A DNA stretch of 64,000 nt from an uncultured Rhodospirillaceae bacterium (GCA_964631725.1 CAZVYX010000027.1:1624-65623), one strand, 5' to 3'. Positions 5,840 to 62,671 are shown, numbered from the stretch's first letter. Program-made: numbers and translations. The notes: a model not told the origin generated them from the letters alone.

Positions 5840-5944
5840 CTAGAGCAATTTTCAATTAGTCGGAGTCGTGAACGCGACTTAAGTAATTGGTTCAATTGCT
5901 CTTTTCTTAAGAGTCTGAGCATGTTTAGAAAAAACATGCTCTAG
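5840..5944 (+). repeat. MITE-like two-hairpin repeat, subtype A, copy A1 (CTAG at both ends)
   Basis: ctagagcaattttcaatt...aattggttcaattgctct (hairpin 1) then gagcatgtttagaaaaaacatgctctag (hairpin 2). Related copies at 14278, 34436, 58699, 62558. Confidence 0.8.
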
Positions 5945-5968
5945 CCAAGCGAATGGATTTTTGTTGCC

Positions 5969-6835
5969 ATGGACCCGCGCATTACACCGGCCCGCGATGA
6001 TCTAGCCGCGAACTGGCTGCGAGATCAGGTCGCGGCGGCGCGCTATGTCGATGGCTCCCCCCGCACGGTTGTTCGGGACGGCGCGCCCCTGCGTTTCTCG
6101 CCGGATCGGAACGCCGGCCTGGAAAGCCAGTTGATCCATGGCGAAACTTTCCAGGTGTACGAGGAGCGCGATGGCTGGTGCTGGGGGCAGAGTTTGACCG
6201 ACAATTATGTCGGTTATGTTCCGGCGGTGGATCTGGCGGACAACCTGCCGGCACCTGATCATCAAGTCGCGGCCCTGCACAGCCATCTCTATTCCGAGCC
6301 GGATCTGAAACGGCCGGTCGCCGGCATCATCTCCATGTCGGCGCGGGTTAAGGTTGTTGATGTCGAGGGCAAGTTTTGCCGTATTGCTTCCGGCCATTGG
6401 CTGCACTCCAGGCATTTGGTGTCCCTGGACTACAGCACCCAGGATTATGTTGGTACGGCGATGAAGTTTATCGGCGTGCCATATCTGTGGGGCGGACGCA
6501 CGGCCATGGGCCTGGACTGTTCATCACTGGTGCAATTGGCCCTGGGCATGGCGGGTATCGCGGTGCCGCGGGACAGCGATTTGCAGGAAAACGGCGCCGG
6601 CGCTCCGGGCGCGCCCGTCGCCATGGAAGACGGCCATGATTTTTCCCAGCTTGAAGAGGGCGACCTGGTGTTTTTTCCCGGCCATGTTGGCTTTTTTGTC
6701 AGCGATTGGCGCTTCCTGCATGCCAATGCGTTCGATATGCAGGTCTCTCTGCACGGATTTTCCGATGTCCTTGACCGCGCCAATCAGGATAACACCGCGG
6801 TAACTTCCATCAGGCGGATTGCGCCATCCCATTGA
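5969..6835 (+). CDS. NlpC/P60 (C40) peptidase with N-terminal SH3-like domain
   Basis: GVPYLWGGRTAMGLDCSSLVQLAL catalytic Cys region; the C-terminal His region is present. Confidence 0.7.
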   Translation: MDPRITPARDDLAANWLRDQVAAARYVDGSPRTVVRDGAPLRFSPDRNAGLESQLIHGETFQVYEERDGWCWGQSLTDNYVGYVPAVDLADNLPAPDHQVAALHSHLYSEPDLKRPVAGIISMSARVKVVDVEGKFCRIASGHWLHSRHLVSLDYSTQDYVGTAMKFIGVPYLWGGRTAMGLDCSSLVQLALGMAGIAVPRDSDLQENGAGAPGAPVAMEDGHDFSQLEEGDLVFFPGHVGFFVSDWRFLHANAFDMQVSLHGFSDVLDRANQDNTAVTSIRRIAPSH

Positions 6836-8102
6836 CCTTGCGCAGCCAATATCGGGCCATCACGGCGTGACCCGGCCGGAGACCGCTACCGGCACTTCGG
6901 CGCTGGCGCCCTTCGCCGTGCGCAGCTTTCGGTTCCAATGGCCGGCAGACTTGCTGACATCCTGGGCCTTCGAGATGGAGACCCTGATCCTGGGTTGGTA
7001 CGTGCTGGTGGAAACGGATTCGGTGCTGCTGCTGACCGCCTTCGGCTCCCTGCAATTCCTCGGCACCCTGATTTCGCCGCTGCTGGGTGTCGTCGCCGAC
7101 CGTGTGGGCCGGCGGGCGGTGCTGTGTACCATGCGGGCCATGTACGCCGTTCTGGCCCTGACCCTGATGGGTCTGGCCTTGAGCGGAACCCTGAACCCCT
7201 ATTTCGTATTGGTCATCGCGCTGCTGGCCGGTTTGGTGCGGCCCTCGGACCTGGTCATGCGGAATTCCCTGATCGGCGATACGGTGCCAAGTGCCTTGCT
7301 GGCCAAGGCCATCGGGCTGTCGCGCACGACCATGGACTCGGCCCGTATCGCCGGCGCCTTGGCGGGCGCCGGTCTGTTCGCGACCCTTGGCATCGGCCCG
7401 GCCTATGTGGGCGTCGTGGCTTTGTACGGCATCTCGCTCGTCCTGACTTTTGGCGTCGCCGGTCCGCGCCCCTCACCCGCGCGGCCGGCTTCCCAGCCGA
7501 CATCCTCCTGGCAGGAGTTGAAGGCCGGCCTGGCCTTTGTCCGGAACACGCCCGAGGTGCTGGCGCTGATGATCCTGGCCTTTCTGGTCAATCTCACGGC
7601 CTATCCGGTCTCCATGGGCCTGCTGCCCTATGTGGCCAAGGAAATTTACGCCATTGATCAGAATGGTCTGGGACATCTGGTGGCGGGCTACGCCTGCGGC
7701 GCCTTGCTGGGCTCCATCATCATGATCATGACGGGGGGCGCCCGGCGGCCAGGGCGCTTCATGGTGCTTTCCATCGTGGCTTGGTACGTTTTGATGATAT
7801 TCTTTGCCTGGCAGGAAATGAAATGGCCCGGCTTCGTGATCTTGCTGCTCACCGGCGTTTTGCAAAGCACCGCCATGATTTCCATGTCGGTGACCTTGCT
7901 GCGCATAACGCCGGAGCAGTTCCGGGGCCGCATCCAGGGCGTGCGCATGCTGGCGGTTTATGGCCTGCCCGTGGGTTTGCTGGCCGCCGGCGTTCTGGTC
8001 GATTGGTCTGGATTTTTCAGCGCCGTGTTGGTTTACGCCTTGTTGGGCATATTGTGCACAGGATGGATTGCCTTGCGATGGCGCGCCGCCATCTGGCGCT
8101 GA
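6819..8102 (+). CDS. MFS transporter
   Basis: 12-TM profile with the MFS motif GVVADRVGRR. Start uncertain. Confidence 0.7.
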   Translation: MRHPIDLAQPISGHHGVTRPETATGTSALAPFAVRSFRFQWPADLLTSWAFEMETLILGWYVLVETDSVLLLTAFGSLQFLGTLISPLLGVVADRVGRRAVLCTMRAMYAVLALTLMGLALSGTLNPYFVLVIALLAGLVRPSDLVMRNSLIGDTVPSALLAKAIGLSRTTMDSARIAGALAGAGLFATLGIGPAYVGVVALYGISLVLTFGVAGPRPSPARPASQPTSSWQELKAGLAFVRNTPEVLALMILAFLVNLTAYPVSMGLLPYVAKEIYAIDQNGLGHLVAGYACGALLGSIIMIMTGGARRPGRFMVLSIVAWYVLMIFFAWQEMKWPGFVILLLTGVLQSTAMISMSVTLLRITPEQFRGRIQGVRMLAVYGLPVGLLAAGVLVDWSGFFSAVLVYALLGILCTGWIALRWRAAIWR

Positions 8103-8122
8103 GCGGGCGAGGGGACGGAAGC

Positions 8123-9364
8123 ATGAACAAGAACGCCATGGAAGTTAATGGAGAGAGGCTTTGGGATAGCCTGGAAGCCTCGGGCCAGATCGGCAAGCTG
8201 CGTGGCACCGGCCTGCGCCGCCTGCCGCTTTCCGACGCCGACAAGGAAATGCGCGACACCTTCCGCACCTGGGCCGAGGCGGCCGGCTGCGCCGTGACGG
8301 TGGATCAGGTCGGCAATATCTTCGCCCGCCGTCCGGGCGGCGATGATACCCTGCCCGCCGTTGCCACGGGCAGCCATTTGGATACCCAGATGTGCGGCGG
8401 CAAATATGACGGCGTCCTCGGTGTGATGAGCGGCCTGGAAGTGATCCGCACCCTGAATGATCTCGGCGTCGAGACCAAACGTCCGATCGAGCTGGTGGTC
8501 TGGAGCAACGAAGAGGGCGCCCGTTTTACCCCGCCCATGCAGGGCTCCCTCGCCTTTATCGGTGATCTCAGCCTGGAGACTGTCCTAACGTCCGAGGACG
8601 CCGATGGCCTGCGTTTCGAAGACGAGCTGCGGCGCATCGGCTACGATGGTACGCGCGAACTGGGTGAGAGCAAGTTCGAGGCCTATCTTGAACTGCATAT
8701 TGAACAGGGCCCGGTGCTCGACCGTATTGGCATCGATACCGGCATCGTCGTCGCCGGCTTCAAATCCCATGGCCTGAAAATCCAGGTCACGGGCAATACC
8801 GCCCACGTTGGCCCGACGCCCATGGACGAGCGGCAAAACGCCCTGGTCGGCGCGGCGCATCTGATCACGGCGGTGGATGCCATTGGCTGGCAGCACCACC
8901 CCCAGGGCGGCAAGAGCACGACGCCCCATATCAGTTGTTTTCCGAACCTGCCCGGCATCATCCCGGAGTCGGCGCAACTGACTGTCGATTTTCGCCATCC
9001 CGAAGCCAAGGTCGCCGATCAGATGTTGGCCGAGGTGCAGGCGGCGATGGCCGAGGCGGCCGAGAAGGCAAATGTGCGGATGGAAGTCGTCGATAGCTGG
9101 ACCTTCGGCGACAATCCGTTTTCCGACGACTGCATCAAGGCCCTGGAAGACACCGCCGATGCCATGGGCATCGACTATATGGAAATCCGCAGCCAGGCCG
9201 GCCACGACGCCTATGCCATCGGCAAGGTCGCGCCCATGGGCATGATCTTCACCCCCTGCACCGCCGGCGTCAGCCACAACGTTGAAGAGAGCATTGAGCT
9301 GCAGCGAACCCTGCCGGGCGTCAACCTGCTGCTCAACACCATGGTCAACATGGCGAACCGCTAA
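8123..9364 (+). CDS. M20-family Zn amidohydrolase (allantoate amidohydrolase / N-carbamoyl-L-amino-acid hydrolase type)
   Basis: Starts MNKNAMEVNGERLWDSLE... with GSHLDTQ and VWSNEEGARF motifs. The track ORF start at 7781 overlaps the MFS gene and is spurious. Confidence 0.8.
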   Translation: MNKNAMEVNGERLWDSLEASGQIGKLRGTGLRRLPLSDADKEMRDTFRTWAEAAGCAVTVDQVGNIFARRPGGDDTLPAVATGSHLDTQMCGGKYDGVLGVMSGLEVIRTLNDLGVETKRPIELVVWSNEEGARFTPPMQGSLAFIGDLSLETVLTSEDADGLRFEDELRRIGYDGTRELGESKFEAYLELHIEQGPVLDRIGIDTGIVVAGFKSHGLKIQVTGNTAHVGPTPMDERQNALVGAAHLITAVDAIGWQHHPQGGKSTTPHISCFPNLPGIIPESAQLTVDFRHPEAKVADQMLAEVQAAMAEAAEKANVRMEVVDSWTFGDNPFSDDCIKALEDTADAMGIDYMEIRSQAGHDAYAIGKVAPMGMIFTPCTAGVSHNVEESIELQRTLPGVNLLLNTMVNMANR

Positions 9365-10104
9365 TCGTGGTAGAAAATCGCCGGCGGCGGGTTCGGGGAC
9401 ATGTTCTCGCTTTCCCAATCCCACAGGATGGGCGTGCGGTCGGGATGTGCGGCCCGCAAGGCGCGCAGGGCGATCATCGGTTCGTAGATCCCGTAAAGAC
9501 GGCGCAGTTCTCCGACCGCATCGAATTTCATGTCGGCCCGTAGATCAAGCAGTGGAATCTCAGGCAGTTCGGGGGTGCCGATGACTTTGACCGCCGCGCC
9601 GCGCTCGCTGAAATGACGGCCATTGGCGGCCTGTTGGCCACCGGCATCGCGGCCTGCTTCCAGGGCCGAGATCAGGCGCGATGCCAGGGGCCCCTCGGCG
9701 GAATTCTCGAACCCCTCAACCATTGCCGCTACGACTTCGGGGCCTGCTAGAACATTGCCGAAGGCGAGGCAGTCCCGACCATGTTGCTCGCCCGCCCAGG
9801 GCTGGTTCGCCTGACCGGTTCGGGCAATGACCGCGCCATCACGGCGCATGATGGCAATTTGCCGGTATTCCACATGATCGTCGGCGGCCGCCACACTGGC
9901 CAAGGCATTTTCGAGCGAGCGGCCCTCGTCCAAGGCGCGGACACCGGCAATGGCGGCGCGGGGGTTTCCCTTCGCCTGCACGACGACAATATCGCCGCCA
10001 TAACCATAGCAAGGTGAAATGCCTCCGACACCCATGGTCACCGACGTCAGGGCCAGGCCGATTTGTCCGGTCTTCTGACAATGGCCAAGAATTGAGAATG
10101 TCAT
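9361..10104 (-). CDS. DUF1028 Ntn-hydrolase-like protein
   Basis: Begins MTFSILGHC (Thr2 nucleophile signature). 247 aa. Confidence 0.7.
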   Translation of the reverse strand: MTFSILGHCQKTGQIGLALTSVTMGVGGISPCYGYGGDIVVVQAKGNPRAAIAGVRALDEGRSLENALASVAAADDHVEYRQIAIMRRDGAVIARTGQANQPWAGEQHGRDCLAFGNVLAGPEVVAAMVEGFENSAEGPLASRLISALEAGRDAGGQQAANGRHFSERGAAVKVIGTPELPEIPLLDLRADMKFDAVGELRRLYGIYEPMIALRALRAAHPDRTPILWDWESENMSPNPPPAIFYHD

Positions 10105-10175
10105 TTTTCACTGCTCCGATGACAAGTTGTTGCCGCCGGGCCGGGTGGCGTCCGGCCCGCAAGGCTTATCAGCCA

Positions 10176-10859
10176 TTAGGCGGTTGGTTCCGTCTGCCGC
10201 CAGACATCGTCCCGGGGCATATTGGGATTGCCGGGGCGTGTGTCGTAGTAGGGAATGAGCGGCTTGTAATGTTCGTAGAGGCGGCGCAGTTCGCCCACCG
10301 GTTCGTCATGCAGATCGGCGCGCAGATCGATCCAGGCATAGCTGCGTTTGTTCACCACCTTCAGGGCCGAGGAAAATTCGCCGCCCACCTGGCCGCCGGC
10401 ATCACGGCCCGCTTCCAGACATTGCATCAACCGATCGCCAAGGTCCCCGCCCTTCGTTTGCTCCCAGACTTCCTCCATCGCGGTCACCGTTGCCTCGCCC
10501 GTCAGACGGTTGCCCAGGGAGACAAAATCCTGCTTCGCGACATGGCCCTTCCAATCCTCGCTGTCCTGGCCGGTCCAGGCGGCGGTGCGGCCTTCCTGGT
10601 CGACCACCGCGACCTGACGCCATTCGCGGTGCGGATCGTTATCCGACAGCTCCCGCAGCACCTTGTCGGCGCCGTATCCCATGGACAACAGATCAAGGCC
10701 GAGGGGCCCGAAGCGGGGATCGCCGTTGGCCTGCACTACCAGCGCGCCCACGCCCGGTTTCAGGAACGGGCATTTCGCGCCGATGGCGATGGGACGGGTG
10801 GCGATGGCGATGCCGAACATCCCGGTATCGGGGCAGCGGGCGACAACGGAATAAGTCAT
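10176..10859 (-). CDS. DUF1028 Ntn-hydrolase-like protein (tandem paralog)
   Basis: Begins MTYSVVARC from ATG at 10859. Colinear with the upstream paralog (EAGRDAGGQ and GELRRLY motifs shared). Confidence 0.7.
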   Translation of the reverse strand: MTYSVVARCPDTGMFGIAIATRPIAIGAKCPFLKPGVGALVVQANGDPRFGPLGLDLLSMGYGADKVLRELSDNDPHREWRQVAVVDQEGRTAAWTGQDSEDWKGHVAKQDFVSLGNRLTGEATVTAMEEVWEQTKGGDLGDRLMQCLEAGRDAGGQVGGEFSSALKVVNKRSYAWIDLRADLHDEPVGELRRLYEHYKPLIPYYDTRPGNPNMPRDDVWRQTEPTA

Positions 10860-11827
10860 GAAACATCCTCCAATTCCGGAATAACCCACAATGGCGCCTC
10901 GCCCCGGTTGACCCGCTGGACGTTGTCAAAGGCATTGCGCACCCGCGCCTTGTTGCTTTCGAAGGTCGGGCCGGCCATGTGCGGCGTCAGAACGACATTG
11001 TCCAGGGCCAGCAGCGGGTTGTCGGGCGCGGGAGGTTCCTGGTCAAAGACATCCAGGCCGGCGCCGGCGATGCGGTCGGCGGCCAGGGCATCGTGCAACG
11101 CGACCTCGTCAATGACCGGTCCGCGCGAGGTATTGACCACCATGGCGGTGGGTTTCATCAGCGCCAGTTCGGCCGCGCCGATCATGTGACGGGTCGAGGC
11201 GTTCAGGGGGACATGCAGCGAGATCAGATCGGATTCCGCCAGCAGTTCCCGCAGCAGGCGGAAACGGACGCCAAGGGCATCTTCCTCCGCCTCGGTAAGG
11301 CGCGCGATATCGTAGTAGATCACCGCCATGCCAAAGGCCTGGGCCAGCCGCGCGGTCTTCTTGCCGATGGCGCCCAGGCCGACAATGCCCAAGGTGCGGT
11401 TGCGCAGTTCATGCAGCGCCAGCACATCATTGCCCCGCCAGCGGCCCGCCGCCACGTCGCCGTGCTGGCGCACCAGTTGCCGGGAAACCGCCAGCATCAG
11501 CAACAGGGCATGCTCCGAAACGGCGACCGAGTTGGCGCCGCCGTTATTTGATATCGGCACCCCGGCCTTGCGCGCGGCGGCGATATCGGCCCGGTCATAA
11601 CCGGCGCTGAGCAACTGTATCAGGCGCAGATTGGGCGCCGTGGCATAAAGCTCGTCATCCACCAGCATATCGACGAAGCCGACCAGATATTCCGCCGTTG
11701 CCAACGCCCCCTGGTACTCGGCACTGCGCGCCTCGGTGATGATCAGATCATAACCGCTCGGCGCCAATTCCCGCGCGAATGCCGCCGCCGCCGGAAACTG
11801 CGTTACAAATACGATTTTCGAGCTCAT
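10856..11827 (-). CDS. D-isomer-specific 2-hydroxyacid dehydrogenase
   Basis: GIVGLGAIG NAD-binding motif; catalytic R/E/H region. Start MSSKIVFVT at 11827. Confidence 0.8.
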   Translation of the reverse strand: MSSKIVFVTQFPAAAAFARELAPSGYDLIITEARSAEYQGALATAEYLVGFVDMLVDDELYATAPNLRLIQLLSAGYDRADIAAARKAGVPISNNGGANSVAVSEHALLLMLAVSRQLVRQHGDVAAGRWRGNDVLALHELRNRTLGIVGLGAIGKKTARLAQAFGMAVIYYDIARLTEAEEDALGVRFRLLRELLAESDLISLHVPLNASTRHMIGAAELALMKPTAMVVNTSRGPVIDEVALHDALAADRIAGAGLDVFDQEPPAPDNPLLALDNVVLTPHMAGPTFESNKARVRNAFDNVQRVNRGEAPLWVIPELEDVS

Positions 11828-11962
11828 GGCCGGTCCTTCTTCTTTCGAAATCTGTTGCACGACAGCACAAAGCATCGGCAAATTGAAAGCAACCTATTTT
11901 CCGCTGCGGCGGGAATCCTAAGCCGGGCCTTGCCGCAAAACGCCACAAAGAGGAATAAAGCC

Positions 11963-12337
11963 ATGAACGAGCAGGAAACATTCGCATTATTGGATGACAT
12001 CGGCGCCGCCTTCGCGCGCCATGATATTGCCGCCATGGTCGGTTATTTCGCCAAGGACGGCGTCTTTGTGAATGCCATCGGGCCCGATCCGTTCGGCACC
12101 CGCTATCAGGGGCACGAACAGATCCGGGGCTATTTCGACAATCTTTTTGCCAGCACGGAAGAGGTGCAATGGGAAAAGCAGGACGCCCGGGTTGTCGGCG
12201 ACAAGGCCTACACCGAATGGCACCGCCGGGCGACCTTGAAAAGCGGCGAGAAACAGGACTGGCTCGGCGTCGATATCTATACCTTCGGCGAAGGCGAAAT
12301 CCTGAAAAAGGACACCTACATCAAGGTCGTTGGCTAG
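11963..12337 (+). CDS. SnoaL-like / NTF2-fold protein
   Basis: 124 aa. RBS aggaataaag precedes the ATG at 11963. Confidence 0.55.
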   Translation: MNEQETFALLDDIGAAFARHDIAAMVGYFAKDGVFVNAIGPDPFGTRYQGHEQIRGYFDNLFASTEEVQWEKQDARVVGDKAYTEWHRRATLKSGEKQDWLGVDIYTFGEGEILKKDTYIKVVG

Positions 12338-13755
12338 GGCGGTGAGAGGTTAAACACCCTCCGGGCGTTGTCTCCGCCAACACTTGCGGCAAGGTCTTCG
12401 GGTAGCTGATCGATGATCGCCCAGGTTGACTCGAACGAGGCCGCCAGCTTGGCCCTCTCGGGACCGGGACCGACGAATTCGTCCGCGCCCAGCATGATGC
12501 GGTTCGGGAAATCCTTGATCAACTGCAGCCAGTCCGGCTTGATGCGCCTGTCCAAATCGACGATCCGATTGGGGAAGGCACGGCCATCCCGGCTTTGCAG
12601 TTGTTGCGGCACGCGCAGCGAGAGGTACAGATTGGCGTGGGCCCGCAACAGACGACGCATCAGTGACGGCGTCATTTGGCCGGTGTTGTCCCAGCCGATA
12701 TGCTCCCAGACGATGCGGGCCTTGCGGTTGTGCCGCAGCAGAGCTTCCAGATCGGGGATCGTCGGCTCCAGGGTATGGGGATTCTTGCCGCAACGCCGGC
12801 GCAGGTTTTCGGGCGTGGCGGCGCGGGTCTCAATGGCCTCCATATGCAGATCGATTGCGACGTTCCGTTGCGCCGCGATATCGGCCAGTTCCAGGAACAG
12901 GGGATGATTTGGCGCGACATATTCGAACTTGTGCTTGGGGTTCATGCACAGGTGGTAGGAGATCATCTCGCCAAAGCCCACGGCGCCATCATCCAATAAT
13001 TGCTCCGCCGTCTTTCGAAAGCGCCGTTTCAAATCTTCCGTGACCGCGTCGGCGGGCCATTCCTGAAGCATCTCGCCCAGCAGCGCGCCGCCAGCCAGCA
13101 GGCGGAGCCGACCGGGGTGGCCCCGCACCGCTTCGCGCATCAGGCGGTAGGACTGCATCCGGCCCTCCCGCGATGACGGCACCACCACGATCAGCGCGGT
13201 TTTCAGGCGCTGTTGGTCCATGCGGGCAACAAGGTTGTTCGCGGCGGCGGCCAGGTTGGCCGCCTCGTCCATGGGTTCGCGGCGGCCCTGTTCACGTCCG
13301 CCACCCTGGTTGCCGTGGGTCTTGTCGAGGCCAACCTGGTGCAGGTGTATATGAGTATCGACAAACCGTAACGGTCCTTGCCGGGCCATGGCCGGGGCGG
13401 CGGTATCACTGGCGGAACGCCGCCCGCCCTGTTGCCGGCCTGATTGACTTTGCGCGCCGGTCCGGCCACCGCCCCGCGGGCCGCCCCGCCGCACCTCCTG
13501 CGGTGTCAGATAACCGCTGCCATCGGCGTCCAGACGATCGAAAACCTGGGCCGGTCCGGGAAATTCGCGCTTTGACAACCGGCCATCGCCGTCTCGGTCG
13601 TTCCGCTGAAAGACCGGCGGGACATTCTGTGCCGACACTTCGAACTCGGCAGTGGTAAATGGCATCCCGGGGACGAAAACAGCCACCAGGGTGGCCCCGC
13701 CAAGCATCAGGTGGGTTAGGCATCGTATCGCAAAGGCAGACTTGAACAAGGCCAT
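12334..13755 (-). CDS. secreted EF-hand (x2) + amidohydrolase-2 (PF04909-like TIM-barrel metal hydrolase) fusion
   Basis: Signal peptide MALFKSAFAIRCLTHLMLGGATLVAVFV. Two canonical 12-residue EF loops (DRDGDGRLSKRE, DADGSGYLTPQE). G/R-rich linker, then FVDTHIHLH metal-binding motif. Confidence 0.65.
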   Translation of the reverse strand: MALFKSAFAIRCLTHLMLGGATLVAVFVPGMPFTTAEFEVSAQNVPPVFQRNDRDGDGRLSKREFPGPAQVFDRLDADGSGYLTPQEVRRGGPRGGGRTGAQSQSGRQQGGRRSASDTAAPAMARQGPLRFVDTHIHLHQVGLDKTHGNQGGGREQGRREPMDEAANLAAAANNLVARMDQQRLKTALIVVVPSSREGRMQSYRLMREAVRGHPGRLRLLAGGALLGEMLQEWPADAVTEDLKRRFRKTAEQLLDDGAVGFGEMISYHLCMNPKHKFEYVAPNHPLFLELADIAAQRNVAIDLHMEAIETRAATPENLRRRCGKNPHTLEPTIPDLEALLRHNRKARIVWEHIGWDNTGQMTPSLMRRLLRAHANLYLSLRVPQQLQSRDGRAFPNRIVDLDRRIKPDWLQLIKDFPNRIMLGADEFVGPGPERAKLAASFESTWAIIDQLPEDLAASVGGDNARRVFNLSPP

Positions 13756-13894
13756 GTATCCGACTCCTTGATCACCGATCATAGCCGATCTGGCGCAAAT
13801 GATGGAACTACTCTGCCGTCTTCGGATGGCCTTGGGAATTTCGGCGACTGTTGTTAAGGTTGCCTACGGCTTATCACATCAAAGGGTGTAACCC

Positions 13895-14239: not shown

Positions 14240-14277
14240 GCCCCCGCCCCGCCCATTCCCGCCCCGCCTAGAGCATG

Positions 14278-14373
14278 TCTTTTCTAAACATGCTCGGACT
14301 CTTAAGAGAAAGAGCAATTGAATCAATCACTTGATTCGCGAAAGCGAATCCAATTAATTGAAAATTGCTCTAG
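14278..14373 (-). repeat. MITE-like repeat subtype A, copy A2 (inverted relative to A1), CTAG both ends
   Basis: ctagagcatgtcttttctaaacatgctc...agagcaattgaatcaatcacttgattcgcgaaagcgaatccaattaattgaaaattgctctag. The 3' CTAG supplies the ligase TAG stop. Confidence 0.8.
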
Positions 14374-15911: not shown

Positions 15912-15934
15912 GACGGTACTCCTATTCTCTGAAC

Positions 15935-18867: not shown

Positions 18868-18897
18868 GATTGTCTCTCCCCAGTTTTCCCACAGCTT

Positions 18898-25615: not shown

Positions 25616-26457
25616 TGAACGCGAAACAGAAACCCGTTGCCGTTGTCATCGGCGCCACCTCCAAATGGCAAGCGGATGGCCGTAACACCCGGTTGGCCCA
25701 TGGTGATACGGTCGACGATCAGGACTTGCCGGTGGGTATTCGCTGGGGTATCGGCGGCGCGGTGGCGCAAAAATTCGCCGCCGAGGGTTTTTTCACCGTG
25801 CTCACCACACGCAATGCCGCCAACGCCGCCGGCCTTGAAAGCGCCATCAGGGATCATGGTGGCGATTGCATGATCGTCGAGCTGGACCTGATCTCCGATA
25901 CCTCGATAGCAAACGCCTTCGCCAGGATAAGAGGCGAGGCCGGTGATCCGGAGGTGTTGGTTTACAACGCCGGCTATCTGGAAGGCCGCGATCTGCCGCC
26001 CGAGAAGGAATTGCTGGAACACATCCCCGTGGAGATGTTCGATACCGCGCAGCATATTTCCAGCCGGGGGCCATTCCTGGTCGCCAAGGAAGTGCTGCCG
26101 GCCATGCGCCTGAAGGGTGAAGGCTCGTTCCTGATATCCAACAACGCCAGCTCCCTGCGCGGGCGCAAGCGTCAAACGGGGCAGTCGCTGTACTACCCCA
26201 GGGTTATGATGCGCACCCTTGCCCAGGTCCTGACGGAGGAATATTCAGAGCACGGCGTGCACGTGGCCAACGTCGTCATTGATGGCCTGATCGATTCACC
26301 GGGAACGCGGGCCCTGCCGCGGGCGCAAGACAACCCCGGCGCGGTAATGAACCCGGTGAAGATCGCCGAGGCGTTCTACTATCTGCACACCCAGGACAAA
26401 TCCTGCTGGACCCACGAGTTGCAGTTGACACCCTATCCCACGAAGCCGAGTTACTAG
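25615..26457 (+). CDS. atypical SDR-family oxidoreductase (insertion in Gly-rich loop)
   Basis: VIGATS ...26-aa insert... GIGGAVA; YxxxK-like region later. Confidence 0.55.
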   Translation: MNAKQKPVAVVIGATSKWQADGRNTRLAHGDTVDDQDLPVGIRWGIGGAVAQKFAAEGFFTVLTTRNAANAAGLESAIRDHGGDCMIVELDLISDTSIANAFARIRGEAGDPEVLVYNAGYLEGRDLPPEKELLEHIPVEMFDTAQHISSRGPFLVAKEVLPAMRLKGEGSFLISNNASSLRGRKRQTGQSLYYPRVMMRTLAQVLTEEYSEHGVHVANVVIDGLIDSPGTRALPRAQDNPGAVMNPVKIAEAFYYLHTQDKSCWTHELQLTPYPTKPSY

Positions 26458-26550
26458 AGCAACCCGCATTCAATTGAATGCGGATAAGTTGCTCTATTCT
26501 AAAGATTTTAGCGCATGGGTTCGGGTTTGATTAAACCCGACATGCGCTAG
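26455..26550 (+). repeat. MITE-like repeat subtype B, copy B1, CTAG both ends
   Basis: ctagagcaacccgcattcaattgaatgcggataagttgctct (hairpin 1) + gcgcatgggttcgggtttgattaaacccgacatgcgctag (hairpin 2). The SDR stop TAG lies inside the 5' CTAG. Confidence 0.8.
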
Positions 26551-30614: not shown

Positions 30615-30711
30615 CTAGCGCATGTCGGGTTTAACCAAACCCGAACCCATGCGCAAAAACTTTTGGAATAGAGCAACTTATCCGCATTCAATTGAATGCG
30701 GGTTGCTCTAG
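30615..30711 (-). repeat. MITE-like repeat subtype B, copy B2 (inverted relative to B1), CTAG both ends
   Basis: ctagcgcatgtcgggtttaaccaaacccgaacccatgcgc ... agagcaacttatccgcattcaattgaatgcgggttgctctag. Confidence 0.8.
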
Positions 30712-34418: not shown

Positions 34419-34435
34419 ACGAAGAGCAATTTTCA

Positions 34436-37339: not shown

Positions 37340-37353
37340 GTGGAGGGTTCGTC

Positions 37354-38559: not shown

Positions 38560-38588
38560 CGGCTGGCTTGCATGATGGAGAGTCTGTG

Positions 38589-54175: not shown

Positions 54176-55323
54176 CGCACGGCCAGTTCAAGCGGGGCCG
54201 AGGATAGTCTTTCGTTGCCGTCATTGGTGACGATTACCGTTTCGCCCAAGGTCATGGCCTGGCCGGCGGCGCTGTCCATTAGGATCATGTGCAAGAAAAA
54301 CACCATTCCCGGCGCGGCGATAACGGGATTGCCGTGATAGAGCATTGGACTATCCATCCAGATCGGCGCGAAAACCGCACCCATGGAATAGCCGCAGGCA
54401 TTCATGCGGGCGTGCTTCAGGCCCGCGTCGTCCATGACCCTGGCGTGGGCATCGAAGACGCCGCCGATTGGCTGGCCAACCGTCAGGGCGGCCTTGCAGG
54501 CCGCCAACGCCTCGGCACTGGCTTCATACATATGCAATTGGTGCGGTGATGGGTCGCCGACGACGATCGTGCGCATCATGCAGGAATGGTAATGGCGGTA
54601 GGCACCCGCGAATTCCAGCGTCAATTGATCTTGCGGCTGCAAGACCTTCCGCCCCGTGAAATAGCGGCACAGCAGCGCGTCCGCGCCCGAGCCGATGATG
54701 AATTCGTTGCCGGCGTAATCACCGCCGCCGCGAAACACCGCACCCTGCATCGCGGCGAGTATATCGCCCTCGTCAGCGCCAGCGGCCGTCGTCGCGAGCG
54801 CCTGGTGCCAAGCGTCATCGGCAAGTTCGCCGGCCCGGCGTATGTAGTCCAGCTCCCTCGGGCTCTTTACCATGCGCTGTATGCTGACCAAGTCGGAAGC
54901 ATCTTCAAGGCTGCAAAACCCGTCCAGGGTGGCGTTCAAAATCATGCCGTTCTTGGCATTCAGGCCATAGGCGTCATATTCGACCCCCAGGCGCTGGCCG
55001 GCGCAGCCATGGCTCTGCAAGATCGCCTTTAGATCATCGCACGGCGTCACGCCGTCGCCGTCAACCCAAATCCGGATATCTTCGATAATGGACGTGTTCT
55101 GGGCCTGCCGCAGGTCGGGCGCCCGGGTCAGCAACGTCAACTGCCCGTCGAGGCCAAGATATAGGCATTGAAAGAAACAAAACCCAAATGTGTCATAGCC
55201 GCTTAGATAATACATACTTTCCTGGCGGAACATCAAAAGGCCGTCCAGGCCGCGATCCCGCAGCATTGAAACCGTTGCCGAAATCCGCTGCCGATATTCC
55301 GAAACCTCAAAATGTAAAGCCAT
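54172..55323 (-). CDS. M24-family (creatinase/prolidase fold) metallohydrolase
   Basis: Pita-bread fold motifs; 383 aa. Confidence 0.7.
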   Translation of the reverse strand: MALHFEVSEYRQRISATVSMLRDRGLDGLLMFRQESMYYLSGYDTFGFCFFQCLYLGLDGQLTLLTRAPDLRQAQNTSIIEDIRIWVDGDGVTPCDDLKAILQSHGCAGQRLGVEYDAYGLNAKNGMILNATLDGFCSLEDASDLVSIQRMVKSPRELDYIRRAGELADDAWHQALATTAAGADEGDILAAMQGAVFRGGGDYAGNEFIIGSGADALLCRYFTGRKVLQPQDQLTLEFAGAYRHYHSCMMRTIVVGDPSPHQLHMYEASAEALAACKAALTVGQPIGGVFDAHARVMDDAGLKHARMNACGYSMGAVFAPIWMDSPMLYHGNPVIAAPGMVFFLHMILMDSAAGQAMTLGETVIVTNDGNERLSSAPLELAVR

Positions 55324-56373: not shown

Positions 56374-56377
56374 GAAG

Positions 56378-58486: not shown

Positions 58487-58495
58487 CTGACATTT

Positions 58496-58567
58496 ATACC
58501 AAGTTGCGGTGATAAAGACCCATATAGATCGTTTCAGGAGCCCCTCGGGTAGGAGTGGGAGCGCCGG
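58496..58567 (-). repeat. truncated second copy of the 260-bp repeat (TIR end only, ~70 bp conserved)
   Basis: ataccaagttgcggtgataaagacccatatagatcgtttcaggagcccctcgggtaggagtgg is the reverse complement of 19095-19157 with 1-2 mismatches. Confidence 0.7.
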
Positions 58568-58698
58568 CGATATTGCAATCGCGCTCACAGGGCAGGAGGC
58601 CACCTTCGGCCCAGCAGGGGCGGCATGGCGACGCCTCCCGGTGCGCCAACTGTCAGGTCAATACCGTCTCGGCACAGACATTCTTGTGCTGATGTTCT

Positions 58699-58805
58699 CC
58701 AGGAGCATGTTTCTTTCAAACATGCTCCTGCACTTAAGAGAAAGAGCAATTGAATCAATCACACGATTCGCGAAAGCGAATCCAATTGATTGAAAATTGC
58801 TCTAA
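58699..58805 (-). repeat. MITE-like repeat subtype A, copy A4 (ends degraded: ccag.../...ctaa)
   Basis: gagcatgtttctttcaaacatgctc + agagcaattgaatcaatcacacgattcgcgaaagcgaatccaattgattgaaaattgctct. Confidence 0.75.
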
Positions 58806-59554
58806 TAGGTCGCCCGGCCGCCCGATAGGTCGAACACGCCGCCGGTGGAAAAGCTGCAATCTTCCGAGGATAGCCAGGCGACCAGGGCCGCCGCCTCGTC
58901 GACCCGGCCCAGGCGGCCCATGGGGATACGCGACAGCATATAATCCACGTGCTCCTGGGTGATCTGGTCAAAGATCGCGGTGCGGATCGCCGCCGGGGTG
59001 ACGCAGTTGATGATCACGCCGGCCTCCGCCGTTTCCTTGGCCAATGACTTGGTCAGGCCGATCACGCCCGCCTTGGCGGCGGAATAGGCGCAGGCGTTGG
59101 GATTGCCCTCCTTGCCGGCGATCGAGGCGATGTTGACGATGCGGCCATAGCCATTGTCCATCATGTGCGAGATCAGGCTTTGGCAGCAGACGAACACCGC
59201 GTCCAGGTCCAGGTTCACCACTGACCGCCATTCGGCGTAGCTGTATTCCCAGCTTTTCTTGGCCGGGCCGGCGATGCCGGCGTTGCAGACCAGGATGTCG
59301 ATCTTGCCACGTGCGACGACGGCACTGTCGCGCGCGGCGGCGACCTGATCGGGATCCGTGACATCGACCTTGGCGCCGGTCAGGCCGTCGCCGGCATCGC
59401 ACGCCGCCAACTTGGCATCCAAATTGTCCTGGCTGATGTCCCACATAATCACGGACGCACCCGACGCCAGAAACCGCTCGGTGATGGAGCCGCCGATGCC
59501 GTCGGCGCCGCCGGTGACAATGGCCGTGCGGCCGTTCAAATCGATATTGTTCAT
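58802..59554 (-). CDS. SDR oxidoreductase (3-oxoacyl-ACP-reductase-like)
   Basis: VTGGADGIG...NAG...YSAAK. Confidence 0.8.
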   Translation of the reverse strand: MNNIDLNGRTAIVTGGADGIGGSITERFLASGASVIMWDISQDNLDAKLAACDAGDGLTGAKVDVTDPDQVAAARDSAVVARGKIDILVCNAGIAGPAKKSWEYSYAEWRSVVNLDLDAVFVCCQSLISHMMDNGYGRIVNIASIAGKEGNPNACAYSAAKAGVIGLTKSLAKETAEAGVIINCVTPAAIRTAIFDQITQEHVDYMLSRIPMGRLGRVDEAAALVAWLSSEDCSFSTGGVFDLSGGRATY

Positions 59555-59587
59555 CTTGCTACTCCAAATTCAATTCTTGGTCCCAAA

Positions 59588-60849: not shown

Positions 60850-60957
60850 GTCCGCCTCGTCTATTGTTAAAAAACTGCCGCATACTACGCGCTCGGCATT
60901 TGATCTGGCCAGCGCTCTGCCCCATTCTGTGGCCAGAAAATTTGATGGGAGGTTTGA

Positions 60958-61725
60958 ATGGGTCGCGTAGCGAACAAGGTGGCATTGGTAACGGGCGGAT
61001 CTTCCGGCATCGGGCGCGCCACGGCGGAACTTCTGGCGCGGGAAGGCGCCACGGTGGTGTTGAGCGATCTGCAGGACGAAGCCGGGGCCGAAGCCGTCGC
61101 GGCGATCGTCGCGGCGGGCGGCAAGGCATCCTATCTCCACCACGATGTCACGGACGAGGCGGCCTGGAAAAGAATCATCGATACGGTGCTCGAGGATCAC
61201 GGTAGCTTGGACATCCTGGTCAACAATGCCGGTATCAGCGGCGGCAGCGGTGTGCCGGTGGAGGAGATTTCCCTGGAACAGTGGCGCGAAACATTGTCGG
61301 TCAATCTGGACGGCGTTTTTCTCGGCGTGAAGCATGGCGTTGCCGCCATGAAGGAAAGCGGCGGCTCGATCATCAATACCTCGTCCATTCTGGGTATCGT
61401 CGGCCTACCCCTGACCAGCGCCTATACCGCATCCAAGGGCGGCGTGCGTCTGTTGACCAAGGCCGTCGCCATGGAATGTGCGGCACGGGGCCTGAAGATC
61501 CGGGTCAACTCGGTGCATCCGGGCTTTATCGATACACCCATGGTGGGCGGGGCGATCCAGCGCGGCGGGCCGGAACGGCGGGAAATGATCCTAAACTCCC
61601 AGCCCACGGGTGAAATGGGCCAGCCGGAGGATATCGCCGAAGGTATTCTGTATCTGGCCTCGGACGCGGCGAAGTTCGTCACGGGCAGCGAATTGGTCAT
61701 CGACGGCGGCTATCTGGCCCGCTAA
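60958..61725 (+). CDS. SDR oxidoreductase
   Basis: VTGGSSGIG...NNAG...YTASK. Confidence 0.85.
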   Translation: MGRVANKVALVTGGSSGIGRATAELLAREGATVVLSDLQDEAGAEAVAAIVAAGGKASYLHHDVTDEAAWKRIIDTVLEDHGSLDILVNNAGISGGSGVPVEEISLEQWRETLSVNLDGVFLGVKHGVAAMKESGGSIINTSSILGIVGLPLTSAYTASKGGVRLLTKAVAMECAARGLKIRVNSVHPGFIDTPMVGGAIQRGGPERREMILNSQPTGEMGQPEDIAEGILYLASDAAKFVTGSELVIDGGYLAR

Positions 61726-61745
61726 TCAAAAAAGGAAACAACATC

Positions 61746-62561
61746 ATGAGTGGACCTGAAACCTACGAAGTCTTTGCCATCCGCTACGGCAGCGTGGCGG
61801 AACGTTTGCGCCGGGACAATTTCATCATCGCCCCGGAGCATCCAACCGACCCGCACGACGGCAACATGCCTCTGGACTATTTCGTCTGGGCCATCGTCAA
61901 CGAAAACCGCACGATCGTGGTCGACACCGGTTTTGAGCGCACCGAGGGCGATCGGCGCGGGCGCACCATTACCCGTCTGCCCGCCGAAGGCCTGGAGATC
62001 ATCGGCATCGATGCCGCCAAGGTCGAAGATGTGATCATCACGCATCTGCATTATGACCATGCCGGCACCCTGGATGATTTTCCCGCCGCCAGGTTCCATC
62101 TCCAGGAATCAGAGATGCACTACGCCACCGGTAAGCATATGTGCCACGAACCCTTTGGCCATGCCTATGCCCCGGATCATGTTTGCACCATGGTGCGGCG
62201 GGTGTTCGATGGCCGGGTCGCCTTTCACGATGGCGCGGCGGAGCTGGCGCCGGGCATCTCGGTGCATTGGATCGGCGGCCATACCGCGGGCGTGCAATGC
62301 GTCCGCGTGCTGACCAAGCGCGGCTGGCTGGTCCTGGCCTCGGACGCGGCGCATTTCTACGAGAATATGGAGGCGACAGCGCCGTTTCCGATAGTTTATT
62401 CCGCCGCCGATATGGTCCAGGGCTATGCCACCATGCTCGGTCTGGCGGAGTCGGGAAAGCACGTTATTCCCGGCCACGATCCTTTAGTGATGCAGCGCTA
62501 TCCCGTCGCCAAGGAAGGCCAGGAGGACGTGATCCGTCTGGACGTTGCGCCGAGGGATTAG
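61746..62561 (+). CDS. MBL-fold AHL-lactonase-like hydrolase (second in window)
   Basis: HLHYDHAG motif; 271 aa. Confidence 0.75.
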   Translation: MSGPETYEVFAIRYGSVAERLRRDNFIIAPEHPTDPHDGNMPLDYFVWAIVNENRTIVVDTGFERTEGDRRGRTITRLPAEGLEIIGIDAAKVEDVIITHLHYDHAGTLDDFPAARFHLQESEMHYATGKHMCHEPFGHAYAPDHVCTMVRRVFDGRVAFHDGAAELAPGISVHWIGGHTAGVQCVRVLTKRGWLVLASDAAHFYENMEATAPFPIVYSAADMVQGYATMLGLAESGKHVIPGHDPLVMQRYPVAKEGQEDVIRLDVAPRD

Positions 62562-62671
62562 AGCAATATTCAATCAATTGGTTTCGCCTTGGCGATCCAA
62601 GCGATTGGTTCAATTGCTCTTTTCTTAAGAGTCCCAAGTATCTGGGCATATCTGGAAGAGACATGCTCTGG
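62558..62671 (+). repeat. MITE-like repeat subtype A, copy A5 (ttag.../...ctgg)
   Basis: agagcaatattcaatcaattggtttcgccttggcgatccaagcgattggttcaattgctct + an imperfect second hairpin. The lactonase TAG stop lies in the 5' end. Confidence 0.75.

What the first reader, a model, noticed from the sequence alone, without database searches (positions are those of the whole stretch)
5840..62671. Dense family of ~100-bp, CTAG-bounded, two-hairpin miniature repeats (7 copies, two subtypes) in intergenic spacers
Subtype A (5840-5944, 14278-14373, 34436-34525, 58699-58805, 62558-62671) and subtype B (26455-26550, 30615-30711) share one architecture: a terminal ctag(a/c)gca...tgc(t/g)ctag, a long first hairpin (A: agagcaatt..caatt / aattg..aattgctct; B: gagcaac-ccgcattcaattgaatgcgg-gttgctc) and a second hairpin (A: gagcatgttt..aaacatgctc; B: gcgcatgggttcgggttt..aaacccgacatgcgc). 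Copies occur in both orientations. All sit between genes, most at 3' ends. The best-preserved copies are bounded by CTAG on both sides. CTAG is a preferred target or terminal motif of some IS5-family transposases, so trans-mobilised MITEs are plausible. A structured sRNA or terminator family is the alternative. Seven copies plus two copies of a second repeat family in 64 kb is a high density.
Basis: seen in the sequence. Interest (0 to 1): 0.7.

Follow-up and report, generated by a model that had tools for sequence, protein, structure and literature searches.

The report
CTAG-targeting miniature transposons (CIR/RIME-like)
The seven ~100-bp repeats are real, non-coding "hitch-hiker" transposons of a kind long known in Alphaproteobacteria; they insert at the TA of CTAG, which here lies mostly at gene stop codons, and their ends look like those of IS630-family insertion sequences.

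Summary
The window holds exactly seven copies, five of subtype A and two of subtype B, all between genes. Each folds into two hairpins joined by an AT-rich linker. They are not special to this window. The same termini (CTAGAGCAA...ACATGCKCTAG), two-arm plan and ~105-107-nt length recur in more than 20 alphaproteobacterial genomes, with lineage-specific interiors. Filled and empty orthologous sites show insertion at a single CTAG. Copies flanked TTAG...CTAG show that only TA is duplicated, so the element proper is GAGCA...TGCTC. The terminal TAG serves as the stop codon of a flanking gene at about 35% of ends, in both orientations, because CTAG is rare here and sits mostly at stop codons. Twelve alphaproteobacterial IS630-family insertion sequences share the N-TA|GAGC(G/A) tips. 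Each also has a GANTC at positions 24-28 of its left end, as the repeats do at one end. The best reading is MITEs mobilised in trans by an IS630-family transposase, not an IS5-family one. No transposase gene was found in the window. The anatomy matches published CIR repeats and, from memory, RIME and Bru-RS. These are new members of a known kind. The IS630 link and the fixed CcrM site are the interesting parts.

The parts
5840..5944 (+). Copy A1, complete, bounded by CTAG...CTAG. Hairpin 1 is about 5842-5902, the linker 5903-5916, hairpin 2 about 5917-5941. GANTC sites at 5863 (element position 24) and 5911.
   Evidence: It lies between a MarR-family gene (5390-5827) and an NlpC/P60 gene (5969-6835).
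14268..14373 (-). Copy A2, complete, bounded by CTAG...CTAG. Its terminal TAG (14370-14372, minus strand) is the stop codon of the acyl-CoA synthetase gene 14370-15962. GANTC sites at element positions 24, 37, 50 and 73.
   Evidence: The orthologous gene in L188 (85% aa identity) ends GGGA-CTAG-AGCC with no element.
26454..26550 (+). Copy B1, the 97-nt B variant, bounded by CTAG...CTAG. Hairpin 1 is 26455-26496 and hairpin 2 is 26509-26549. TAG 26455-26457 is the stop codon of the SDR gene 25615-26457.
   Evidence: Homologues of the SDR end at the same residue (..KPS[F/Y]*), several with ..tac TAG, so the protein is unaltered.
30615..30711 (-). Copy B2, 95% identical to B1, bounded by CTAG...CTAG. 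It lies 49 bp upstream of the start of the SDR gene 29633-30565 (minus strand).
   Evidence: It is absent from the corresponding spacer of the syntenic contig L011.
34421..34525 (+). Copy A3, with decayed termini (GAAG...CTGG). It starts 3 nt after the stop of the enoyl-CoA hydratase gene 33627-34418. GANTC at 34444 (element position 24).
58700..58805 (-). Copy A4, with TTAG at the hairpin-1 end and a decayed other end (CTCCTG). TAG 58802-58804 (minus strand) is the stop codon of the SDR gene 58802-59554. GANTC sites at 58752, 58765 and 58778.
62558..62671 (+). Copy A5, with TTAG at the hairpin-1 end and CTGG at the other, plus a ~10-nt insertion before hairpin 2. TAG 62559-62561 is the stop codon of the metallo-beta-lactamase-fold gene 61746-62561.

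Best explanation
The seven repeats are non-autonomous DNA transposons (MITEs). They belong to a widespread alphaproteobacterial superfamily that the literature knows as CIR and, probably, RIME and Bru-RS repeats. The element proper runs from GAGCA... to ...TGCTC and is flanked by a duplicated TA. The preferred target is the TA inside CTAG, so intact copies read CTAG at both ends. Each end carries a terminal inverted repeat of IS630-family type. This comprises the tip TA|GAGC(A/G) and, at one end, a GANTC box at positions 24-28, often paired with a second inverted GANTC at 31-37. The most likely mechanism is cut-and-paste by an IS630/Tc1-mariner-type DDE transposase supplied in trans by a full-length IS elsewhere in the genome. 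CTAG is about 2.7-fold depleted in this genome and survives mainly as C+TAG at stop codons. Tolerated insertions therefore pile up exactly at gene ends, in either orientation, and the duplicated TA keeps the stop codon intact. Shown here: the copies, their fold, their dispersal, insertion polymorphism at a CTAG, TA-only duplication, end similarity to IS630-family IS, and stop-codon association. Inferred: that an IS630-family transposase is the mobiliser, and that the elements are still active in this organism.
For: The family is widespread. A scan for CTAGAGCAA-N70-100-ACATGCKCTAG gave more than 103 loci, nearly all Alphaproteobacteria (Stellaceae, Rhodospirillaceae and marine MAGs, Acetobacteraceae, Xanthobacter, Rhizobium, Bosea, Roseospirillum, Terasakiella). 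These yield 97 unique two-hairpin elements in 10 sequence clusters of constant ~105-107 nt. The Rhizobium-type element occurs in 479 plasmid records.

Insertion polymorphism is seen at three sites.
- R. ruizarguesonis reads ...TTTTGAG-CTAG-[AGCAAT..ATGCT]-CTAG-CGCG, whereas R. beringeri reads ...TTTTGCG-CTAG-CCCG.
- Window copy A2 is absent from its orthologue L188.
- L012 is filled and L067 is empty.

Only TA is duplicated. Copies found without requiring CTAG have left 4-mers TTAG (6), GTAG (2) and ATAG (1), while the right 4-mer is CTAG in 10 of the 16 copies.

Stop codons coincide with the ends. A long high-GC3 ORF ends in the terminal TAG at 35 of 107 left ends and 40 of 107 right ends. 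In the window, CTAG occurs 26 times against 69.6 expected. Eight of these are element ends, and at least 8 of the other 18 are stop codons, including convergent genes sharing CTAG at 54172-54175.

The ends resemble IS630-family ends. Twelve alphaproteobacterial IS630-family IS of ~1050 bp, including ISRm2011-2, have ends N-TA|GAGC(G/A)... and a GANTC at 24-28 of IRL only. The repeats have GANTC at exactly 24 from one end in 5 of 10 cluster representatives, and this is the only positional peak. For most well-preserved copies, window arms match IS TIRs at 12-14 of 21 positions beyond the shared core, which about 0.05-3% of shuffles reach; decayed ends match worse.

The literature agrees on the mechanism. 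IS630-family elements use cut-and-paste with TA duplication, and IS630 prefers the TA in CTAG (PMC2170065).
Against: No IS630-family transposase gene lies in the window or in about 1.3 Mb of fetched loci. The partner in this organism is therefore unseen.

The best IS matches to the A and B arms are only about 60-65% identical beyond the core, so none of the sampled IS is the actual parent.

The left and right ends of one element resemble each other only weakly beyond 8 nt. Each end instead pairs with an internal inverted copy, giving two separate hairpins. This is unusual for a TIR-type MITE and is not explained by the IS630 model.

The window's own B1 and B2 lack the GANTC box; they are the 97-nt deletion variant.

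Exact empty-site evidence comes from a Rhizobium relative and from MAGs. For the window's own copies only one side is comparable.
Confidence: 0.72

Rival explanations
1. The elements are MITEs mobilised by an IS5-family transposase. The most plausible candidate would be an IS427-group element like Brucella IS711, which duplicates TA in YTAR/CTAG.
For: IS711 duplicates TA at YTAR and is reported to prefer the palindromic Bru-RS repeats. A Pseudomonas IS5-type MITE of 100 nt inserts at CTAG or YTAA. IS5-family transposase genes sit next to IS630 copies in L190 and L200.
Against: MITEPsy1 and its parent ISPsy2 have GGAAGGTC... ends and a 4-nt duplication, unlike GAGCA... with a TA duplication. 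Positive similarity of tip, register and GANTC box was found with 12 IS630-family IS and with no IS5-family end. IS711 landing in Bru-RS is explained simply by the CTAG those repeats carry.
Confidence: 0.1
2. The elements are REP/REPIN-like or IS200/IS605-type (PATE) elements. In this reading a tyrosine HUH transposase (RAYT/TnpA) moves them as single-stranded DNA, recognises the hairpins, and uses CTAG as the cleavage tetranucleotide.
For: There are two stable hairpins whose stem bases and flanking tetranucleotide are conserved while the upper stems vary with compensatory changes. Left and right ends share only about 8 nt. A single CTAG in the empty site is formally compatible with insertion 3' of a tetranucleotide.
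Against: The base 5' of the left TA varies (T, G, A or C) while TA is constant on both sides. That fits a TA duplication, not a fixed tetranucleotide target. No HUH/Y1 motif was found in six-frame translations of the window and loci, although the screen was a crude regex. Elements occur equally in both orientations. The arms match the double-stranded TIRs of DDE-type IS630 elements.
Confidence: 0.05
3. The repeats are primarily a functional RNA or DNA signal, such as a 3'-UTR stabiliser, a terminator, an sRNA or a CcrM/GcrA-type regulatory site. In this reading they are kept by selection and spread by recombination rather than transposition.
For: The folds are very stable. In subtype A, hairpin 1 is followed by TTTTCTT. 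Copies sit right at gene ends. GANTC is 4-fold depleted in the window (63 against 254 expected), yet 11 of the 63 sites lie in the five A copies. Published CIR repeats were discovered through this CcrM association (PMC2229807).
Against: There is no orientation preference relative to the adjacent gene (35 versus 40), which an RNA or terminator function would require. Precise presence/absence with target duplication is seen. No Rfam family matches, even at E<=1. The terminator scan of 5000-15000 does not call A1 or A2. B1 and B2 lack GANTC. A secondary, exapted role for individual copies is not excluded.
Confidence: 0.08

Closest known systems
CIR1-CIR4, Caulobacter CcrM-associated intergenic repeats (Chen & Shapiro 2003, as summarised by Delihas 2008, PMC2229807)
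   Same: About 110 bp and strictly intergenic. Found in Caulobacter, Brucella and other Alphaproteobacteria. Two long inverted repeats form two arms joined by a linker. A conserved GANTC sits at or next to the loop of one arm. TA at the termini. All of these hold for subtype A and for the wider family.
   Different: The review lists CIR as having no TIR, an unknown TSD and an unknown means of mobility. Here a TA duplication in CTAG and IS630-type ends are shown. The window's subtype B copies lack the GANTC.
RIME1/RIME2, Rhizobium-specific intergenic mosaic elements (Osteras et al. 1995; paper not held, features recalled from its abstract)
   Same: 108-109 bp, two large palindromes, intergenic, found in Rhizobium and Sinorhizobium. 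The Rhizobium-type member of this superfamily is 105-108 nt with two palindromes and is abundant in Rhizobium, Sinorhizobium, Shinella and Agrobacterium plasmids. Modules recombine, as in the L057 chimera.
   Different: Identity with RIME1/2 is inferred and was not aligned. The window's A and B interiors share only termini, architecture and boxes with the Rhizobium type.
Bru-RS1/Bru-RS2 of Brucella (Halling & Bricker 1994)
   Same: 103-106 bp palindromic intergenic repeats, and hot spots for IS711, which inserts at the TA of YTAR. This behaviour is expected for CTAG-bounded elements.
   Different: No Bru-RS sequence could be compared, so membership is untested.
RUP of Streptococcus pneumoniae (Oggioni & Claverys 1999)
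   Same: 107 bp, intergenic, with a TA target. It was proposed to be mobilised by an IS630-family transposase on the basis of TIR similarity. That is the same logic and the same IS family as here.
   Different: RUP folds as one end-to-end stem. These elements fold as two independent arms. The host is a Firmicute and there is no GANTC box.
IS630-family insertion sequences (IS630, ISY100, ISRm2011-2)
   Same: TA duplication, preference for CTAG, tips TA|GAGC(G/A), and a GANTC at 24-28 of IRL in the alphaproteobacterial members.
   Different: The IS are about 1050 bp and encode a DDE_3 transposase. The repeats are about 105 bp and encode nothing.
REP/BIME/REPIN elements with RAYT
   Same: Short extragenic palindromes with a conserved tetranucleotide next to the stem, and dimeric units.
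   Different: REPs carry GTAG, show no target duplication and are linked to a Y1 transposase. None of these was found here.

Membership tests
CIR (CcrM-associated intergenic repeats) | About 110-bp repeat, strictly intergenic, in Alphaproteobacteria | tested here: met
   The copies are 97-114 nt and all seven lie between ORFs. The relatives are nearly all Alphaproteobacteria. The window shows 4-fold GANTC depletion.
CIR (CcrM-associated intergenic repeats) | Two long inverted repeats forming two arms joined by a linker | tested here: met
   The MFE and centroid structures of six of the seven copies show two arms plus a linker; in A5 the second arm is weak and the two structures differ (z -3.4). 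Overall z ranges from -3.4 to -9.9. The same plan is seen in 10 clusters.
CIR (CcrM-associated intergenic repeats) | Conserved GANTC at or near the loop of one arm | tested here: inconclusive
   Met for A1-A4 (GANTC at element position 24); in A5 that site is mutated (GGTTTC). It is also met for the 107-nt B variants in related MAGs. It is not met for the window's B1 and B2, which are 97-nt variants lacking the apex.
CIR (CcrM-associated intergenic repeats) | Sequence similarity to CIR1-4 consensus sequences | not testable with these tools
   The Chen & Shapiro paper and Caulobacter/Brucella chromosomes are not in the collections.
MITE of IS630/Tc1-mariner type | Small, non-coding, multi-copy, dispersed | tested here: met
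   Seven copies in 64 kb, dozens in related MAGs, and no ORF confined to the element.
MITE of IS630/Tc1-mariner type | Insertion polymorphism with TA target-site duplication | tested here: met
   Filled and empty sites. TTAG/GTAG/ATAG...CTAG flanks show that TA alone is duplicated.
MITE of IS630/Tc1-mariner type | Terminal inverted repeats similar to those of an autonomous IS of the family | tested here: met
   Shared N-TA|GAGC(G/A) tip and a GANTC at 24-28 with 12 IS. For most well-preserved copies, 12-14 of 21 further positions match, which about 0.05-3% of shuffles reach. The similarity is at family level; no parent IS was identified.
MITE of IS630/Tc1-mariner type | Cognate transposase encoded in the same genome | not testable with these tools
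   None in the window or in about 1.3 Mb of loci. The rest of the source genome is not available.
MITE of IS5 family | Ends similar to an IS5-family IS, with a 4-bp (IS5 group) or 2-3-bp (IS427 group) duplication at YTAR | tested here: inconclusive
   A 4-bp duplication is rejected. The MITEPsy1/ISPsy2 ends are unrelated. IS427-group ends such as IS711 could not be compared.
REP/REPIN-RAYT | GTAG-headed palindrome, no target duplication, associated Y1 transposase | tested here: not met
   The palindrome head is CTAG/NTAG, TA is duplicated, and no HUH/Y1 motif was found in the loci (crude screen).
Rfam RNA family or intrinsic terminator | Match to a curated covariance model; a GC stem plus a T-run in a fixed orientation downstream of genes | tested here: not met
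   No Rfam hit at the gathering threshold or at E<=1. A1 and A2 were not called by the terminator scan of 5000-15000; the other five copies were not scanned. Both orientations are equally frequent.

The most novel reading that the evidence does not exclude
The CIR, RIME and Bru-RS-type repeats found across Alphaproteobacteria may all be IS630-family-derived MITEs. The invariant GANTC at positions 24-28, often paired with an inverted second site at 31-37, is present in the left end of every sampled alphaproteobacterial IS630-family IS and in one arm of the MITEs. It is absent from the Deinococcus and Piscirickettsia relatives. In this reading it is a CcrM methylation switch that couples transposase binding or cleavage to passage of the replication fork, in the way Dam/GATC controls IS10, IS50 and IS903 in enterobacteria.
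Probability: 0.3. Interest if true: 0.7.

Novelty: new member of a known kind. Interest (0 to 1): 0.45.

Why it matters
For this window the elements are ordinary genomic parasites. They do explain several things: why gene ends here carry AT-rich hairpins, why some stop codons lie inside repeats, and why assemblies of these marine MAGs break at such sites.

The wider comparison is more useful. Two-armed ~105-nt repeats of Alphaproteobacteria have been catalogued since 1994-2003 (Bru-RS, RIME, CIR), with 'TSD unknown, TIR absent, mechanism of mobility unknown' (PMC2229807). The data here give a concrete, testable answer:
- TA duplication within CTAG.
- IS630-type ends.
- A CcrM site at a fixed position shared by the IS and the MITEs.

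That makes cell-cycle control of transposition in Alphaproteobacteria directly testable. It also gives annotators a simple signature for masking these elements: NTAGAGCA...TGCTCTAN, ~105 nt, two arms.

Tried and rejected
- Searching paper texts for the terminal sequences returned only primers with XbaI sites.
- The single metagenome scan, seeded with the SDR gene next to B1, returned only distant homologues (80-85% identity, soil and marine). None had an element. It was useful only to show that the gene's C-terminus is native.
- Pairing TAGAGCA...TGCTCTA at 0.25-5 kb to find a full-length IS gave only pairs of separate short elements around ordinary genes.
- Regex screens of six-frame translations for RAYT/IS200, IS630, IS5 and IS110 motifs found nothing. 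A tblastn with a Roseomonas IS630 transposase found nothing in the window or loci.
- Partial plasmid hits covering only hairpin 1 were checked as possible IS ends. They are short intergenic elements with a different second arm.
- A search of the 5.8-billion-protein set with the transposase gave thousands of 85-96% identical hits on ~1-2-kb contigs with no taxonomic handle, so the partner in the window's lineage was not found.
- The Azotobacter and Thalassospira IS630 copies were truncated at the left end and unusable.
- The Osteras 1995 and Chen & Shapiro 2003 papers are not held.
- Covariation within subtype A is modest: 5 of 31 pairs have compensatory changes. It cannot distinguish RNA structure from paired protein-binding sites, so it was not used as evidence for an RNA.

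Full report
**The observation**

Reading the seven stated places shows the repeats as described. A repeat scan recovers them as direct and inverted families. An nhmmer profile built from them finds exactly seven full-length copies in the 64 kb and nothing else above noise.

Five copies are subtype A: 5840-5944 (+), 14268-14373 (-), 34421-34525 (+), 58700-58805 (-) and 62558-62671 (+). Two are subtype B: 26454-26550 (+) and 30615-30711 (-). '+' means the long hairpin comes first.

The multiple alignment shows shared termini (CTAGAGCAA... / ...ACATGC[T/G]CTAG) around different interiors. As single-stranded DNA every copy folds into two separate hairpins joined by a 12-16-nt AT-rich linker. The z-scores are -3.4 to -9.9 against dinucleotide-preserving shuffles.

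The copies are about 38% G+C in a 62% G+C window. TAGAGCA occurs 12 times against 1.9 expected.

**Gene context**

All copies lie between ORFs. The neighbours are ordinary genes: MarR, NlpC/P60, acyl-CoA synthetases, short-chain dehydrogenases, a HAD hydrolase, a metallo-beta-lactamase-fold protein and an EAL protein.

In four of the seven copies the TAG of the terminal (C/T)TAG is the stop codon of the adjacent gene: 14370-72, 26455-57, 58802-04 and 62559-61.

For the SDR next to B1, 80 homologues end at the same residue (...KPS[F/Y]*), and several end with '...tac TAG'. The element therefore sits exactly at the native stop without changing the protein.

**Source and distribution**

The window is a marine metagenome contig, JGI 3300007765 Ga0105010_1000193. 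The nearest protein relatives are labelled Rhodospirillaceae MAGs.

Apart from about six evident chance matches, all lie in Alphaproteobacteria:
- marine MAGs that carry the same A and B subtypes;
- Stellaceae, Acetobacteraceae, Acidisphaera and Limobrevibacterium;
- Xanthobacter, Bosea, Pleomorphomonas and Rhizobium;
- Rhodospira, Roseospirillum and Terasakiella.

The 97 unique elements fall into 10 clusters at 75% identity. They keep the same termini, the same two-arm-plus-linker plan and nearly the same length (about 105-107 nt; variants of 97, 104 and 117). The stems differ completely between lineages.

The Rhizobium-type member occurs at 1669 places in 479 plasmid records of Rhizobium, Sinorhizobium, Shinella, Agrobacterium and others.

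**Mobility and target**

Three filled/empty comparisons were found.
- On orthologous Rhizobium plasmids the filled site reads ...TTTTGAG-CTAG-[AGCAAT...ATGCT]-CTAG-CGCG and the empty site reads ...TTTTGCG-CTAG-CCCG.
- The orthologue of the gene abutting window copy A2 (85% aa identity, L188) ends GGGA-CTAG-AGCC and is followed at once by another gene, with no element.
- An A-type copy in one MAG (L012) is absent from the syntenic spacer of another (L067).

In addition, B2 is absent from the syntenic spacer in L011.

Adjacent elements share one CTAG (L056 and L069). Among 16 copies recovered without requiring CTAG, the left 4-mer is TTAG (6), GTAG (2) or ATAG (1), while the right 4-mer is CTAG in 10 of the 16. 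Hence only TA is duplicated. The element proper is GAGCA...TGCTC, and CTAG is a preferred but not obligatory context.

**Why gene ends**

Across 107 elements, a long high-GC3 ORF ends in the terminal TAG at 35 left ends and 40 right ends. Several elements have convergent genes ending in both termini. There is thus no orientation bias, which argues against a terminator or 3'-UTR RNA as the organising principle.

In the window CTAG is strongly depleted, with 26 occurrences against 69.6 +/- 7.7 expected. Eight of the 26 are element ends. At least eight of the other 18 coincide with stop codons, including two convergent genes that share CTAG at 54172-54175.

A CTAG-seeking element in such a genome can hardly land anywhere harmless except at stop codons. 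The TA duplication then regenerates the stop.

**Which transposase**

No transposase lies in the window or in about 1.3 Mb of fetched loci.

It recovered annotated 'IS630 family transposase' genes in 964 plasmid records, mostly Rhizobium and Sinorhizobium. A real ORF from Roseomonas recovered 956 records.

I located the ends of twelve alphaproteobacterial copies: Sinorhizobium, Shinella, Roseomonas, Indioceanicola, Komagataeibacter, Methylobacterium, Bradyrhizobium, Sphingomonas, Methylocystis, ISRm2011-2, Brucella anthropi and Dinoroseobacter. All are about 1050 bp. All are flanked by N-TA...TA-N, mostly CTAG or TTAG, and begin GAGC(G/A) (two begin GAGT or AAGC). All have a GANTC at exactly positions 24-28 of the left end, counting the C of CTAG as 1. 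Most have a second, usually inverted, GANTC at 31-37. The right ends lack it.

The repeats show the same features:
- the tip TA|GAGCA;
- a GANTC at exactly 24-28 from one end in 5 of 10 cluster representatives, which is the only positional peak;
- a second inverted GANTC in several types, for example 24 and 33 in the Acetobacteraceae type and 24 and 37 in window copy A2.

The GANTC-bearing end is the left one in the A, B-107, Stellaceae and Acetobacteraceae types. It is the right one in the Rhizobium, Rhodospira and Terasakiella types.

Beyond the shared seven-base core, in-register comparison of the window's arms with the IS ends gives 12-14 matches out of 21 for most well-preserved copies. 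That is reached by about 0.05-3% of shuffles; the decayed ends (A4 and A5 right) match worse.

IS630-family elements transpose by cut-and-paste with TA duplication, and IS630 prefers the TA in CTAG (PMC2170065 and the Tenzen & Ohtsubo 1991 title it cites).

The most economical reading is that these are IS630-family MITEs. None of the sampled IS is the parent of A or B, so the assignment is at family level.

**Rivals**

The duplication is 2 bp, not 4 bp. The one IS5-type CTAG-targeting MITE I could read about has unrelated GGAAGGTC ends. IS427-group elements such as IS711 also duplicate TA in YTAR and like Bru-RS repeats. I could not compare their ends, so a small probability remains.

A RAYT or IS200/IS605-type single-strand mechanism would fit the hairpins. 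It does not fit the variable base 5' of a constant duplicated TA, and no Y1 motif was found.

A purely functional RNA or terminator family is contradicted by four results:
- the lack of orientation bias;
- precise insertion polymorphism;
- the absence of any Rfam match, even at E<=1;
- the terminator scan of 5000-15000, which does not call A1 or A2.

Exaptation of single copies is not excluded. In subtype A, for example, hairpin 1 is followed by TTTTCTT.

**What the IS630 model does not explain**

It does not explain why each end pairs with an internal inverted copy of itself, giving two arms, rather than with the other end. Part of the first arm's apex (GGAATC-N-GATTCC) is already a palindrome in the IS left ends, so the arm looks like an extension of that palindrome.

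In several lineages the second arm is itself bounded by (C)TAG on both sides (L018, Limobrevibacterium, Roseospirillum and Terasakiella). Chimeras of arms also exist (L057). These facts suggest modular, 'mosaic' units.

**Comparison with what is known**

Delihas's review describes CIR1-4 of Caulobacter, Brucella and other Alphaproteobacteria (Chen & Shapiro 2003). They are about 110 bp and strictly intergenic. They have two long inverted repeats forming two arms joined by a linker, a conserved GANTC at or in the loop of one arm, and TA at the termini. The review records TIR as absent, TSD as unknown and the mechanism of mobility as unknown (PMC2229807). A 2024 review still lists CIR only as a strictly intergenic MITE.

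That description fits the present family point for point. Consistent with it, GANTC is 4-fold depleted in the window (63 against 254 expected), yet 11 of the 63 sites lie inside the five A copies, which are 0.8% of the sequence.

RIME1/2 (108-109 bp, two large palindromes, Rhizobiaceae) and Bru-RS1/2 (103-106 bp palindromic repeats) are probably the Rhizobium and Brucella members. This rests on my recollection of the abstracts and, not on an alignment.

No paper in the held library mentions CIR, RIME or Bru-RS together with IS630 in this sense. That is not proof that the link is unpublished.

**Verdict**

The finding is a correct observation of an already known kind of element, with new subfamilies in an uncultured marine alphaproteobacterium. 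Its named transposase family is not supported by what was found.

What lifts it above routine is the cross-genome result. TA-in-CTAG duplication, IS630-type ends and a CcrM site at a fixed position shared by the IS and the MITEs give a testable mechanism for a repeat class whose mobility has been an open question. The CcrM-switch idea rests on twelve alphaproteobacterial IS and only two outside controls (Deinococcus and Piscirickettsia). It remains a hypothesis.

Noticed in passing
window 18896-18957, 19072-19160 (inverted), 58493-58581: A second, unrelated repeat of 60-90 nt (TTATACCAAGTTGCGGTGATAAAG...GGGTAGGAG) occurs in three copies, 79-92% identical. Two copies form an inverted pair next to the amidase gene start, and one lies 118 bp from copy A4. 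There is no credible Rfam match; the only hit is a plant miRNA model at E=0.16.
   Followed up: partly
window, whole: CTAG is 2.7-fold depleted (26 against 69.6 expected) and GANTC is 4-fold depleted (63 against 254 expected). Eleven of the 63 GANTC sites lie inside the five A-type repeats.
   Followed up: yes
window 54172-54175: The convergent genes 53324-54175 (+) and 54172-55323 (-) overlap by the four bases CTAG, each using its TAG as a stop. This is an unoccupied example of the site type at which elements with genes ending in both termini must have inserted.
   Followed up: partly
window 37330-39170: Tandem paralogous acyl-CoA dehydrogenase genes (37354-38559 and 38568-39794) are 77-84% identical at the DNA level with a 1235-bp period.
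   Followed up: no
L032 1081-1350, versus L068 1609-1630: A different ~250-bp insertion carries a long perfect palindrome (GGTTAATACGGTGACGTAGTACCTATTTCG...CGAAATAGGTACTACGTCACCGCATTAACC). It is present in one marine MAG and absent from the syntenic site of another.
   Followed up: no
L190 709-1809 (Sinorhizobium plasmid pSS05631a): The IS630-family IS sits in the CTAG at the centre of a ~50-bp perfect palindrome (TCCAGACACCCGCGCACAGGTCTC-G-CTAG-T-GGAGACC...), next to an IS5-family transposase gene.
   Followed up: no
L056 3242-3449; L069 3856-4065: Two elements lie head to tail and share a single CTAG. In L056 these are a B-type and an A-type copy. Each insertion therefore creates new target sites at its own ends.
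   Followed up: partly
L021, L024, L041, L051, L073, L087, L095, L097, L104: These loci carry a 117-nt variant of subtype A with a ~12-nt insertion at the apex of hairpin 1. L057 is a chimera of a different first arm with the B-type linker and second arm.
   Followed up: no
L007 5013-5170: A 6S RNA gene (Rfam RF00013, 64 bits) lies about 650 bp from a Pleomorphomonas copy of the repeat.
   Followed up: no
proteins P0121-P0240: The IS630-family DDE_3 transposase of the Roseomonas type has thousands of 85-96% identical relatives on ~1-2-kb metagenome contigs. This indicates a very successful, recently spread IS lineage that breaks assemblies.
   Followed up: no
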